Assembly: GCF_030013205.1 (NCBI RefSeq)
Contig: NZ_CP122648.1
Length of the DNA: 64,000 nucleotides
Source: Escherichia coli
GTDB lineage: Bacteria > Pseudomonadota > Gammaproteobacteria > Enterobacterales > Enterobacteriaceae
Strand: one strand, 5' to 3'
The translations under genes were made by a program, and so were the position numbers. The notes beneath the pieces are model-generated. The model did no database searches and was not told the DNA's origin. It saw nothing but the letters and a program-made list of their open reading frames with translations. This document shows, piece after piece, positions 26,610 to 27,618 of the stretch (within the stretch, counting starts at the first letter, position 1; each line of letters opens with the position of its first letter).

Positions 26610-26803
26610 ACAACTTAGATGCATTAGCCCTGACATTTGCTAACGCGCCTACAGCAAGAATCATAATCAATCTGACAGCCTACCCGGTGTCAAAATCAGA
26701 AGTACCTTACATTAGAATATGTTAATTTGTAGCAAACAAATTTACACACAAATAATTACTGCTGAAATAGCGCCCCATAAATGCCATGTCAGAGGACCAT
26801 GTT

Positions 26804-27469
26804 ATGAATATGCAAATTTTTATTGGACCAACAGCCACAGTTGCCGCGGTCTGCCTTGCTGCATATTTTGCTTTACGAAATGAGCGTAAAAAGAAAGCGC
26901 TTGAGATTAGAACAACTCAACTAGATCGAATATCTGAGCTAGTAAGCAGAGCATCTACCAATTTGATGCAATATACAGGTACTCTTGCCTCTATACTGGA
27001 AGCGCACACCAAAGAAAATTATCTACCAGACCACAAATTTAACATTAATGAAATTAGCAAATGGAAAAATGATCTCGATAAGAGAGAAGATTGGGCTATT
27101 GATATACAGCAACTAAGAACATGCCAGCACAACCTGGAGTTTCATCGTGAAAAAGAATGGGCTGAATGGGAAAAAATAATTCCACCATTACTTGATAAAA
27201 TTAACCAATTTTTTCTCATATCCAAGCCGGGGCAACCTGTTACGCTTATAAATGGTCAAAATAAAACAGTCGATGAACTGATTGCTTTCTCAATATACTT
27301 ACAACAACAAACAGAAGAAATTAAAGCGGTACGTAAGCTGCTACTTTCTCAAATGAGAGAAGAATTCATCGAGTTAACTAGCTTTGAACCTGTCACAATA
27401 TTTAGCTTATTAAAATCAATAAAGAAAAGTGTCCTGCAATTTTTCTGTATCAGTGCTCTTAAAAATTGA
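26804..27469 (+). CDS. AT-rich orphan gene, N-terminal TM helix plus coiled-coil-like body
   Basis: ATG at 26804 with AGAGGA RBS (alternative ATG at 26786); strongly AT-rich; own terminator. Confidence 0.55.
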   Translation: MNMQIFIGPTATVAAVCLAAYFALRNERKKKALEIRTTQLDRISELVSRASTNLMQYTGTLASILEAHTKENYLPDHKFNINEISKWKNDLDKREDWAIDIQQLRTCQHNLEFHREKEWAEWEKIIPPLLDKINQFFLISKPGQPVTLINGQNKTVDELIAFSIYLQQQTEEIKAVRKLLLSQMREEFIELTSFEPVTIFSLLKSIKKSVLQFFCISALKN

Positions 27470-27483
27470 CGCTCTGTTACAAG

Positions 27484-27512
27484 CAACCCCAGTGTTAAAC
27501 TGGGGTTATTCT
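27484..27512 (+). terminator. hairpin plus T-run after the orphan gene
   Basis: aaccccagtgttaaactggggtt followed by attctt. Confidence 0.45.
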
Positions 27513-27618
27513 TGCTAAGAGACCTTTATACGGCATAAGTAAACAAAGAGAACTATCAGTTGGAGTCTGGGCAAGTTCAGCCTAAACTAGCGACAGTACC
27601 ACGTTAAGGGAGGTCGCT

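What the first reader, a model, noticed from the sequence alone, without database searches (positions are those of the whole stretch)
26610..27515. AT-rich single-gene moron with own promoter region and terminator between gene D and ogr
P2 has D followed directly by ogr. Here a roughly 0.9 kb strongly AT-rich segment is inserted, with an AT-rich upstream region, one ORF (221-227 aa; N-terminal TM helix then a charged, coiled-coil-like body) and its own hairpin/T-run terminator. An autonomous AT-rich unit in a prophage is a classic signature of horizontally acquired cargo such as a defense or exclusion gene. I cannot assign the protein to any family by eye, which makes it a candidate for an undescribed single-gene system.
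Basis: inference. Interest (0 to 1): 0.65.

Follow-up and report, generated by a model that had tools for sequence, protein, structure and literature searches.

The report
Unknown membrane-protein cargo gene in prophage
A 968-base AT-rich cassette between tail gene D and regulator ogr of a decayed P2-family prophage carries one gene for a small membrane-anchored protein of an unnamed family that elsewhere sits among anti-phage defence genes, so it is a reasonable but untested candidate for a new phage-exclusion gene.

Summary
Window 26620-27587 is a 968-bp insert compared with related prophages, where D is followed by ogr after 42 nt. It has 34-40% GC against 50-58% in the flanks. It holds one ORF (26804-27469, 221 aa, GAGG Shine-Dalgarno) and a stable hairpin terminator (27485-27507). 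A promoter of its own is not shown; only weak sigma-70-like matches exist.

The host element is a P88-like (Xuanwuvirus) prophage remnant, not P2 itself. Its D-ogr gap is a variable single-gene slot, mostly empty. Other occupants carry DUF3800, DUF2971 (PADLOC candidate PDC-S31), a HEPN protein and two unknowns. The two P2-hotspot papers I read do not describe this slot.

The protein matches nothing in Pfam, PHROGs, NCBIfam, PADLOC or PDB sequences. A confident AlphaFold model (pLDDT 87) shows an N-terminal membrane helix, a generic four-helix bundle and an amphipathic C-terminal helix. The family is tiny (23 clusters at 50% identity), restricted to Enterobacterales, and under purifying selection (dN/dS 0.25-0.33). 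It occurs only in cargo positions of prophages, ICEs, plasmids and islands, often beside PifA, CBASS, PD-Lambda-1, AbiD, TIR and Ppl-like genes.

Best reading: a stand-alone, inner-membrane phage-exclusion or defence protein. The function is inferred, not tested.

The parts
25368..26609 (+). Tail / late-control gene D, the left flank of the slot. The P88-equivalent start is probably near 25500.
   Evidence: ORF list. RefSeq and P88 annotations. 95-98% nt identity to D of P88-like phages.
26620..27587 (.). The inserted 968-bp AT-rich cassette, defined against empty D-ogr sites. It is bounded by the imperfect direct repeat CAACTTAGA (26611-26619) / CAGCCTAAA (27578-27586).
   Evidence: Span difference of 2481 against about 1514 nt. 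Boundary alignments with the empty site and five other cargo variants. GC profile.
26620..26803 (+). AT-rich leader upstream of the ORF. It has only weak sigma-70-like matches (TTGCTA-19-CATAAT at 26637; GTCAAA-18-TAGAAT at 26689; TTGTAG-18-AATAAT at 26727). There is no terminator between D and the ORF. The first ~30 nt are shared by all occupied slots.
   Evidence: IS1 is inserted in this leader in strain AR_0128 with the gene intact.
26792..26795 (+). Shine-Dalgarno GAGG, 8 nt before ATG 26804.
   Evidence: Read from the sequence. This start is used by RefSeq and shared by homologues.
26804..27469 (+). Cargo gene (221 aa plus stop; WP_001057124.1) of an unnamed, Enterobacterales-restricted family.
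   Evidence: dN/dS 0.25-0.33. AlphaFold model with pLDDT 87.4 and pTM 0.73.
26816..26896 (+). Residues 5-31: the hydrophobic helix (IFIGPTATVAAVCLAAYFAL) followed by the basic motif RNERKKK. This is the predicted N-out/C-in membrane anchor and the most conserved part of the family.
   Evidence: Kyte-Doolittle mean 1.86 over 19 residues. K/R count 0-2 on the N side against 4-6 on the C side in most of the 31 members. Column entropy 1.2-1.3 bits against 2.1-2.5 elsewhere. Invariant A20, L24, K30, K31.
27140..27169 (+). Residues 113-122, the F-H-R...W motif. H114 and W122 are invariant. It sits at the break between bundle helices 101-114 and 116-136.
27398..27460 (+). Residues 199-219: the C-terminal amphipathic helix with near-invariant F213.
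   Evidence: Hydrophobic moment 0.48, mean hydrophobicity 0.35. Helix 199-219 in the model, at lower pLDDT of 61-70.
27485..27515 (+). Intrinsic-terminator-like hairpin (AACCCCAGTGTTAAACTGGGGTT) with a weak T-rich tail.
   Evidence: Folding energy -19 kcal/mol, z -3.7. Conserved in the E2348/69 allele.
27545..27588 (+). Right boundary sequence shared by all occupied slots and absent from the empty site. It contains TTGGAG-17-TAAACT (27560-27588; TAGAAT in the consensus of occupied slots). This is probably the ogr promoter copy that keeps ogr expressed downstream of the terminator (inference).
   Evidence: Alignment A5. P2 has its ogr promoter in the D-ogr spacer.
27619..27879 (+). ogr (late-gene activator, zinc finger), the right flank of the slot.

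Best explanation
The segment is a horizontally exchanged single-gene accessory cassette. It occupies a variable slot between tail gene D and ogr of P88-like (Xuanwuvirus, P2-family) prophages. Here the prophage is a decayed remnant.

The cassette encodes a 221-aa protein that I read as a stand-alone phage-exclusion or defence protein working at the inner membrane. The proposed working model has four elements:
- The protein is anchored by one N-terminal transmembrane helix, with a short N-tail outside and the body in the cytoplasm.
- The variable cytoplasmic four-helix bundle recognises an infection cue.
- The highly conserved transmembrane and juxtamembrane segment, possibly with the C-terminal amphipathic helix, is the effector. 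It would self-associate or engage a membrane partner to disturb membrane integrity or energetics.
- The infection is thereby aborted.

Shown: the insertion, its mobility, coding constraint, the fold class, and the company of known defence genes.

Inferred: membrane topology, expression in the lysogen, any anti-phage activity, and the sensor/effector division.

My rough probabilities are 0.95 for 'mobile cargo cassette', 0.45 for 'anti-phage function of the abortive or membrane-effector type', and 0.2 for the exact mechanism stated.
For: Insertion and dispensability:
- The empty site has a 42-nt D-ogr spacer.
- The gene is present in 53-56 of 5426 complete E. coli genomes, while 1130-1448 carry the flanks.
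- It is absent from P88, P884B11, Chuche, PhiR44_2 and Shae_phiSM.

The slot behaves like a defence hotspot:
- Other occupants are single genes. They are DUF3800 (36 genomes; the effector domain of type VII retrons, PMC7736814), DUF2971 = PADLOC candidate PDC-S31 (E 5e-27; 16 genomes), a HEPN RiboL-PSP protein (E 2.5e-4; 64 genomes), and two unknowns.

It is a real gene:
- dN/dS is 0.33 against the E2348/69 allele and 0.25-0.28 against Kluyvera.
- There are 23 clusters at 50% identity, all Enterobacterales where named.

Mobility:
- Lambdoid prophages, in the nin-like region and between Q and the holin.
- ICEs, plasmids and integrase islands.

Defence company, confirmed with PADLOC models:
- PifA 2.9e-257, CBASS cyclase 2e-149 plus 4TM effector 2e-158, PD-Lambda-1 8.7e-240, AbiD 1.7e-65, PDC-S35/TIR 1.9e-64, Ppl-like 4e-29.
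- nSTAND NTPases are also nearby.

Stand-alone:
- No conserved neighbouring gene.

Architecture:
- AlphaFold pLDDT 87.4.
- The positive-inside rule favours a cytoplasmic body.
- The membrane and juxtamembrane segment is the most conserved region and the bundle is variable.
Against: - There are no experimental data.
- There is no similarity to any validated defence, exclusion or toxin family, and no catalytic domain.
- No convincing promoter is present, so expression in the lysogen is unproven.
- The hydrophobic segment is only moderately hydrophobic in some members (1.3-2.1). Topology rests on charge counting alone.
- Cargo slots and islands also carry anti-defence, addiction and fitness genes, so guilt by association is not specific.
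- Some copies are disrupted: IS3 inside the gene in strain 165, a split copy on an Erwinia plasmid, and a frameshifted copy in the phage 520873 record.
Confidence: 0.45

Rival explanations
1. Superinfection exclusion at the DNA-entry step. The membrane protein would block genome translocation across the inner membrane, in the manner of P22 SieA, T4 Imm or HK97 gp15, rather than killing the infected cell.
For: It is a small, single-pass inner-membrane protein encoded as a moron in prophages. The transmembrane and juxtamembrane region is the most conserved part, as expected if it contacts a conserved membrane channel or host factor. It is stand-alone, with no enzymatic domain.
Against: The bulk of the protein is predicted to be cytoplasmic, not periplasmic. 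There is no match to Sie or Imm families in Pfam or PHROGs, for the protein or ten homologues. About half of the contexts are plasmids, ICEs and chromosomal defence islands rather than prophages, which is unusual for classical Sie genes (from general knowledge).
Confidence: 0.2
2. An accessory gene that benefits the mobile element or host in a way unrelated to phage. Examples are a membrane-stress or fitness factor, an addiction or toxin-like module, entry exclusion for conjugative elements, or an anti-defence protein.
For: The gene sits in maintenance regions of plasmids, next to ParA, RepE and a small tyrosine recombinase. It also sits inside the type IV secretion gene clusters of ICEs. Islands and hotspots also carry non-defence cargo. 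The prophage in the window carries other non-defence-looking morons, namely a serine acetyltransferase, an SPFH protein and hok/sok.
Against: There is no cognate antitoxin-like or partner gene. It occurs in prophages that have no conjugation genes. Immediate neighbours are repeatedly bona fide defence genes. The other occupants of the same slot look like defence effectors.
Confidence: 0.2
3. A helper for the phage's own lytic cycle, such as a modulator of lysis timing or membrane events. It would be expressed with the late genes.
For: In two different lambdoid prophages the identical homologue lies between antiterminator Q and the holin/lysozyme genes, in the same orientation. In the window it is co-oriented with D, with no terminator between them.
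Against: It is absent from most P88-like phages and from all sequenced P88-like virions in the phage collection except one prophage-derived record with a broken copy. It is present on plasmids, ICEs and islands that lack phage genes. In the Kluyvera prophage it is opposite in orientation to the neighbouring phage replication, RusA and antiterminator-Q genes. In the window it is retained in a remnant that cannot make virions.
Confidence: 0.08
4. A decaying, non-functional ORF in AT-rich junk DNA.
For: The family is very rare. There are IS insertions in or next to the gene and broken copies. No clear promoter is present.
Against: dN/dS is 0.25-0.33 over dS 0.2-0.65. Full-length homologues at 20-40% identity exist across at least ten genera, with invariant residues and a confidently predicted common fold.
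Confidence: 0.03

Closest known systems
P2-family defence hotspots: the gpA-gpQ locus (old, tin; Rousset et al. 2022, PMC9122126) and the fun/Z locus (Vassallo et al. 2022, PMC9519451)
   Same: Both are variable slots between conserved P2-family genes. Each holds one or a few AT-rich cargo genes that differ between close relatives, and many of these are defence genes. Several occupants of the D-ogr slot carry defence-type domains.
   Different: The position differs: D-ogr, at the right end of the prophage next to attR. Neither paper mentions this slot. The slot was found in P88-like (Xuanwuvirus) prophages and is usually empty. Occupied slots share short boundary sequences. No occupant of this slot has been tested.
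MGE-borne membrane-associated abortive-infection or exclusion proteins (for example F-plasmid PifA, lambda RexB, and the TM effectors of CBASS)
   Same: These are carried by mobile elements and associated with the inner membrane, and the proposed outcome is membrane-level abortion of infection. A PifA homologue and a CBASS 4TM effector are physical neighbours of family members.
   Different: There is no sequence relationship. The protein has one TM helix plus a cytoplasmic helical bundle, with no NTPase domain and no partner cyclase or sensor gene. The activity is hypothetical.
Prophage superinfection-exclusion membrane proteins (P22 SieA/SieB, T4 Imm, HK97 gp15)
   Same: They are small membrane proteins encoded as morons, with no enzymatic domain.
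   Different: There is no Pfam or PHROG match. The body is predicted to be cytoplasmic. The family also occurs widely outside prophages.
Four-helix-bundle sensor domains of chemoreceptors and sensor kinases (4HB_MCP, NarX/NarQ type)

Membership tests
Prophage moron / hotspot cargo cassette | Present or absent between otherwise near-identical relatives at the same position | tested here: met
   D and ogr are 95-98% identical in more than 1100 E. coli genomes, but the gene is in only 53-56. The empty site has a 42-nt spacer.
Prophage moron / hotspot cargo cassette | Base composition deviating from the surrounding phage genes | tested here: met
   GC is 0.34-0.40 against 0.50-0.58. GC3 is 29%.
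Prophage moron / hotspot cargo cassette | Own transcription signals (promoter and terminator) | tested here: inconclusive
   The terminator hairpin is present (-19 kcal/mol, z -3.7). Only weak promoter-like hexamers are found. Transcription was not measured.
Prophage moron / hotspot cargo cassette | Alternative unrelated genes at the same slot in other relatives | tested here: met
   DUF3800, DUF2971, a HEPN protein, and 201-aa and 384-aa unknowns occupy the same slot.
Known or candidate anti-phage defence systems (PADLOC-DB 2.0.0) | Significant match to a model of a system component | tested here: not met
   The only hit is a 33-residue match to REase_II at E 0.028. Ten homologues give nothing better than E 0.006 on short stretches.
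Known or candidate anti-phage defence systems (functional criterion) | Reduces plating or growth of at least one phage when expressed | not testable with these tools
   This needs infection assays.
Defence-island-associated gene (guilt by association) | Homologues recurrently adjacent to validated defence genes in unrelated contexts | tested here: met
   PifA, CBASS cyclase plus 4TM (twice), PD-Lambda-1, AbiD, PDC-S35/TIR, a Ppl-like ATPase and nSTAND NTPases lie within a few genes in at least 6 of about 13 independent contexts. No background-corrected enrichment statistic was computed.
Superinfection exclusion proteins (SieA, SieB, Imm, gp15) | Sequence membership in the corresponding Pfam/PHROG families | tested here: not met
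   There is no Pfam hit even at E<=10, and no PHROG hit below E 0.02, for the protein and ten homologues.
Superinfection exclusion proteins (SieA, SieB, Imm, gp15) | Blocks DNA entry without killing the cell | not testable with these tools
   This needs injection and survival assays.
4HB_MCP / sensor-kinase four-helix-bundle sensor domain | Profile match to the family, with a periplasmic bundle between two TM helices coupled to an output domain | tested here: not met
Described P2 hotspots (gpA-gpQ; fun/Z) | Location between the replication gene A and portal Q, or at the fun/Z position between the tail-fibre and tail-sheath genes | tested here: not met
   The cassette lies between D and ogr. 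The papers define the other two positions.

The most novel reading that the evidence does not exclude
The 221-aa protein founds a new family of single-protein, inner-membrane-acting anti-phage defence. A conserved transmembrane effector would be coupled to a fast-evolving cytoplasmic four-helix-bundle sensor. The D-ogr gap of P88-like prophages would then be a third, so far undescribed, defence hotspot of P2-family phages. Its other occupants (HEPN, DUF3800, DUF2971/PDC-S31 and two unknowns) would also be active defence genes.
Probability: 0.4. Interest if true: 0.6.

Novelty: new member of a known kind. Interest (0 to 1): 0.48.

Why it matters
P2-family prophages are among the main carriers of anti-phage genes in E. 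coli, and two of their hotspots have already yielded many validated systems. A third slot with its own set of single-gene cargos would extend that catalogue and give a short list of compact candidates to test. The list is this gene plus HEPN, DUF3800, DUF2971 and two unknown proteins.

The protein has no detectable relatives outside its small family and no enzymatic domain. If it protects against phage, it would show how a one-helix membrane anchor plus a helical bundle can sense and stop an infection. The allele is present in pathogens such as EPEC E2348/69 and porcine ETEC strains, so it may influence phage susceptibility in strains of practical interest.

If it does nothing against phage, it remains an ordinary orphan moron.

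Tried and rejected
Family and structure searches that found nothing:
- PHROGs, NCBIfam, Pfam and PADLOC on the protein. PHROGs and PADLOC on ten diverse homologues. Pfam on all 31 aligned members.
- A profile of 31 members against all PDB sequences: best E 0.084, for coiled-coil or designed-helix proteins.

Discarded or invalid results:
- The first AlphaFold run, with a 4-sequence alignment, was unusable (pLDDT 42).
- The D 3'-end dN/dS line is invalid, because an indel puts the two sequences out of register. It was not used.

Ideas tested and dropped:
- A conserved partner gene. All-against-all BLASTP of neighbours from eight contexts found none. The only conserved partner is an overlapping upstream gene on two related Pantoea plasmids, which hhalign shows is unrelated to the family.
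- An Ogr-type late promoter element TGT-N12-ACA upstream of the ORF. None is present; only two N13 near-misses were found.
- A lipoprotein or secreted protein. C17 is replaced by W in most members, the n-region has no positive charge, and a strongly basic stretch follows the helix.
- Colicin immunity. A colicin-domain gene is a neighbour in only one context.
- A CBASS accessory gene. Adjacency to a cyclase plus 4TM pair is seen in two contexts but not in the other eleven. The two blocks differ in divergence (76% against 86% nt).

Literature:
- The protein accession gave no hits.
- No paper was found describing a D-ogr hotspot.
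Full report
**1. What is in the sequence**

Gene D ends at 26609, and ogr is 27619..27879 on the same strand. GC falls from 0.50-0.58 to 0.34-0.40 between them. The gene has 35.7% GC and 29% GC3, against 50.3% for the whole window.

The only long ORF in the segment is 26786..27469. I take ATG 26804 as the start (221 aa) for three reasons:
- GAGG lies 8 nt upstream.
- RefSeq uses that start (WP_001057124.1).
- All homologues begin at the equivalent methionine.

A hairpin at 27485-27507, followed by ATTCTTGC, matches the terminator pattern. 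It folds at -19 kcal/mol, z = -3.7. The promoter scan found nothing between D and the ORF. A looser scan gave only 8-9 of 12 matches. No terminator lies between D and the ORF. Transcription could therefore come from read-through, from a weak promoter in the AT-rich leader, or from both. This is unresolved.

**2. The host element**

The window matches E. coli ETEC4079 at 100% identity. The annotation there shows:
- an integrase at window 7523-8515;
- early genes;
- fragments of the replication, scaffold and capsid genes (14680-15113);
- tail-fibre and tail genes, then D, the cargo gene, ogr, a Hok/Gef gene, and the host serS and rarA genes.

Terminase, portal, lysis and baseplate genes are missing, so this is a prophage remnant.

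Sheath, tube and tape-measure genes lie on the strand opposite to D. This is the arrangement in phage P88 and other Xuanwuvirus members, not in P2. The proper comparison, however, is with P88-like phages.

**3. It is an insertion in a variable slot**

A 2481-nt query spanning D to ogr matched 1448 of 5426 complete E. coli genomes, but only 56 over at least 80% of its length. The 1101-nt query gave 53. In most genomes D and ogr lie about 1512-1514 nt apart in total. That means the 968 nt are missing. The same is true of P88, P884B11, Chuche, PhiR44_2 and Citrobacter phage Shae_phiSM. In the empty site the D stop and the ogr start are 42 nt apart. Alignment places the insert at 26620-27587.

Other strains carry different single genes in the same place:

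| Occupant | Size, strand | Genomes (of 5426) |
|---|---|---|
| DUF3800 protein | 389 aa, minus | 36 |
| DUF2971 protein (matches PADLOC candidate PDC-S31, E 5e-27) | 261 aa, minus | 16 |
| Protein with a RiboL-PSP HEPN domain (E 2.5e-4) | 340 aa, minus | 64 |
| Unknown | 201 aa, plus | not counted |
| Unknown | 384 aa, minus | not counted |

DUF3800 is the effector domain of type VII retrons (PMC7736814).

All occupied slots share about 30 nt after the D stop and about 45-60 nt before the ogr ribosome-binding site. These sequences are absent from the empty site. The two boundaries form an imperfect direct repeat. The right boundary contains TTGGAG-17-TAGAAT (TAAACT in the window). I read this as the copy of the ogr promoter that serves ogr downstream of the cassette terminator (inference).

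The two papers that define P2 hotspots place them between gpA and gpQ (old/tin; PMC9122126) and at the fun locus (PMC9519451). Neither mentions D-ogr, and my literature searches found no description of it.

**4. The protein**

No family model matches it. I tried PHROGs, PADLOC, NCBIfam and Pfam, the same libraries on homologues, and a PDB sequence profile.

The family is very small. Seven close relatives turned up among 5.8 billion clustered proteins. A profile search of 1.84 billion representatives found 23 clusters at 50% identity, and a profile word-search found 26. Where a source is named, the organisms are Escherichia, Salmonella, Klebsiella, Kluyvera, Citrobacter, Leclercia, Pseudescherichia, Yersinia, Pantoea, Erwinia and Winslowiella.

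With a 31-sequence alignment AlphaFold2 gave pLDDT 87.4 and pTM 0.73. The model shows:
- a continuous helix 4-71, whose first 20 residues are hydrophobic;
- helices 81-93, 101-114, 116-136 and 156-192, forming a bundle;
- a less confident helix 199-219.

The hydrophobic segment averages 1.86 on the Kyte-Doolittle scale. In most members it has 0-2 K/R on its N side and 4-6 on its C side (motif RNExxKK). By the positive-inside rule the body should be cytoplasmic (inference).

Residues 5-46 are much more conserved than the rest. Column entropy is 1.2-1.3 bits there, against 2.1-2.5 elsewhere. The invariant residues are A20, L24, K30, K31, H114 and W122. The C-terminal helix is amphipathic (moment 0.48).

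dN/dS is 0.33 against the E2348/69 allele and 0.25-0.28 against the Kluyvera allele. The gene is therefore under purifying selection. The two E. coli alleles differ by dS 0.20 while the adjacent ogr differs by 0.018. This suggests the cassette has a history separate from its flanks.

**5. Where the relatives live**

| Context | Immediate company |
|---|---|
| Kluyvera lambdoid prophage, between replication genes and Q | A colicin-domain gene |
| Two different lambdoid prophages | Directly between Q and the holin/lysozyme genes |
| Salmonella ICE | Between TraC and TraU |
| Another ICE | After TraG, beside an nSTAND NTPase |
| Pseudescherichia island downstream of cysH | CBASS and an AAA_16/nSTAND protein |
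| Klebsiella Rep3 plasmid | A KAP NTPase, a TIR protein, CBASS and RES |
| Klebsiella aerogenes integrase island at smpB | A KAP NTPase and an SMC-like ATPase |
| Metagenomic contig | An integrase and a SNIPE/T5orf172 protein |
| Citrobacter, Pantoea, Erwinia and Winslowiella plasmids | Often convergent with a small tyrosine recombinase |

PADLOC models confirm the neighbours as PifA (2.9e-257), CBASS cyclase (2.2e-149) and 4TM effector (2.3e-158), PD-Lambda-1 (8.7e-240), AbiD (1.7e-65), PDC-S35/TIR (1.9e-64) and a Ppl-like ATPase (4.1e-29).

No neighbouring gene is conserved across contexts, so the gene works alone if it works at all.

**6. Interpretation**

The cargo nature of the cassette is established. 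The function is not.

Four lines of evidence point towards a defence or exclusion role:
- a mobile, dispensable, compositionally foreign single gene;
- a slot shared with HEPN, DUF2971/PDC-S31 and DUF3800 genes;
- recurrent placement beside validated defence genes in unrelated elements;
- coding constraint.

The conserved membrane segment and the variable cytoplasmic bundle suggest an effector-plus-sensor arrangement acting at the inner membrane. I therefore favour an abortive, membrane-directed mechanism (about 0.45 for the anti-phage abortive class, about 0.2 for this exact mechanism).

The rivals, with my estimates, are:
- an entry-blocking exclusion protein (0.2);
- a function for the element or host unrelated to phage (0.2);
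- a helper in the phage's own late programme (0.08);
- a decaying ORF (0.03).

The last two are weakened by several observations. The gene occurs outside phages, it is absent from most P88-like phages, it persists in a remnant that cannot make virions, and dN/dS is low.

Evidence that tempers the favoured reading:
- no convincing promoter;
- a generic fold;
- topology inferred from charges alone;
- occasional disruption of the gene by IS3, plus broken copies elsewhere.

**7. Novelty and score**

The kind of object is familiar: a prophage moron in a variable slot that may encode phage resistance. Two things appear new. One is the protein family, which has no name and no relatives in any library searched. 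The other is the D-ogr slot as a cargo site of P88-like prophages.

I rate it a new member of a known kind, with interest 0.48. It is a well-supported, compact candidate for experimental testing, but there are many such candidates and nothing here is yet surprising in principle.

Noticed in passing
window 27924-28210: There is a Hok/Gef toxin ORF at 28070-28210 (+), containing the SLCEIR motif. A sok-like RNA match lies at 27924-28080 (Rfam RF01794, 41.4 bits, below the gathering score of 59). The module travels with the prophage right end: it follows ogr in prophages integrated at serS and at ihfA, and in phage P88.
   Followed up: partly
window 7523-28400, especially 14680-15113: The P88-like prophage is a deletion remnant. 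Only fragments of the replication gene, the gpO scaffold gene and the capsid gene remain. Terminase, portal, lysis and baseplate V/W/J genes are absent. The cargo gene, ogr and hok are nevertheless intact.
   Followed up: partly
window 19023-19568 (-): A serine acetyltransferase gene lies between the tail-fibre assembly gene and the tail gene block, on the opposite strand to the fibre genes. This position corresponds to the P2 fun/Z hotspot. The same gene type sits there in the O104:H4 prophage (L013 1-211).
   Followed up: no
window 12807-13637 (+): An SPFH (stomatin/prohibitin-like) domain protein is encoded among the early-region genes of the prophage. This is another possible accessory membrane-associated gene.
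   Followed up: no
window 26610-26650 and 27545-27600; loci L008-L012, L018, L019: All occupied D-ogr slots, whatever the cargo, share short boundary sequences that the empty site lacks. The boundaries form an imperfect direct repeat (CAACTTAGA / CAGCCTAAA), and the junction falls inside a TAGAAT -10-like element. This suggests cassette swapping by recombination in the boundaries, and loss by deletion between the repeats.
   Followed up: partly
L005 8001-11199 and L014 8001-11233: A family member lies about 520-575 nt upstream of a type I CBASS (cyclase plus 4TM effector) in two places, a Pseudescherichia chromosome and a Klebsiella plasmid. The two blocks differ in divergence (76% against 86% nt identity). 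This could be coincidental co-travel or a functional pairing.
   Followed up: partly
L026 6379-8631, L027 6379-8412, L028 7001-8410, L017 8001-8856: On Pantoea, Erwinia and Citrobacter plasmids the homologue is convergent with a roughly 245-aa tyrosine recombinase (a 61-aa remnant in L017). In the two Pantoea plasmids an overlapping upstream gene of 198-210 aa is conserved (63% identity). hhalign shows it is unrelated to the family.
   Followed up: partly
L003 6077-7652: In a Kluyvera lambdoid prophage the closest non-E. coli homologue (72% identity) lies next to a 408-aa protein with a pore-forming colicin domain. A 100-aa gene on the opposite strand encodes a product with a signal-peptide-like N-terminus.
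   Followed up: no
L030 489-1186; L031 1605-3606: IS elements target the AT-rich cassette. IS1 is inserted in the leader upstream of an intact gene in strains AR_0128 and AR_0118. IS3 is inserted inside the gene in strains 165 and 300709.
   Followed up: partly
window 25368-26609: RefSeq annotates gene D as a shortened 266-aa 'VgrG/Pvc8 family' CDS, with a small antisense pseudogene upstream. The window, however, has an uninterrupted 413-codon ORF, and P88 gpD is 366 aa. This is probably an annotation artefact rather than a truncated gene.
   Followed up: no
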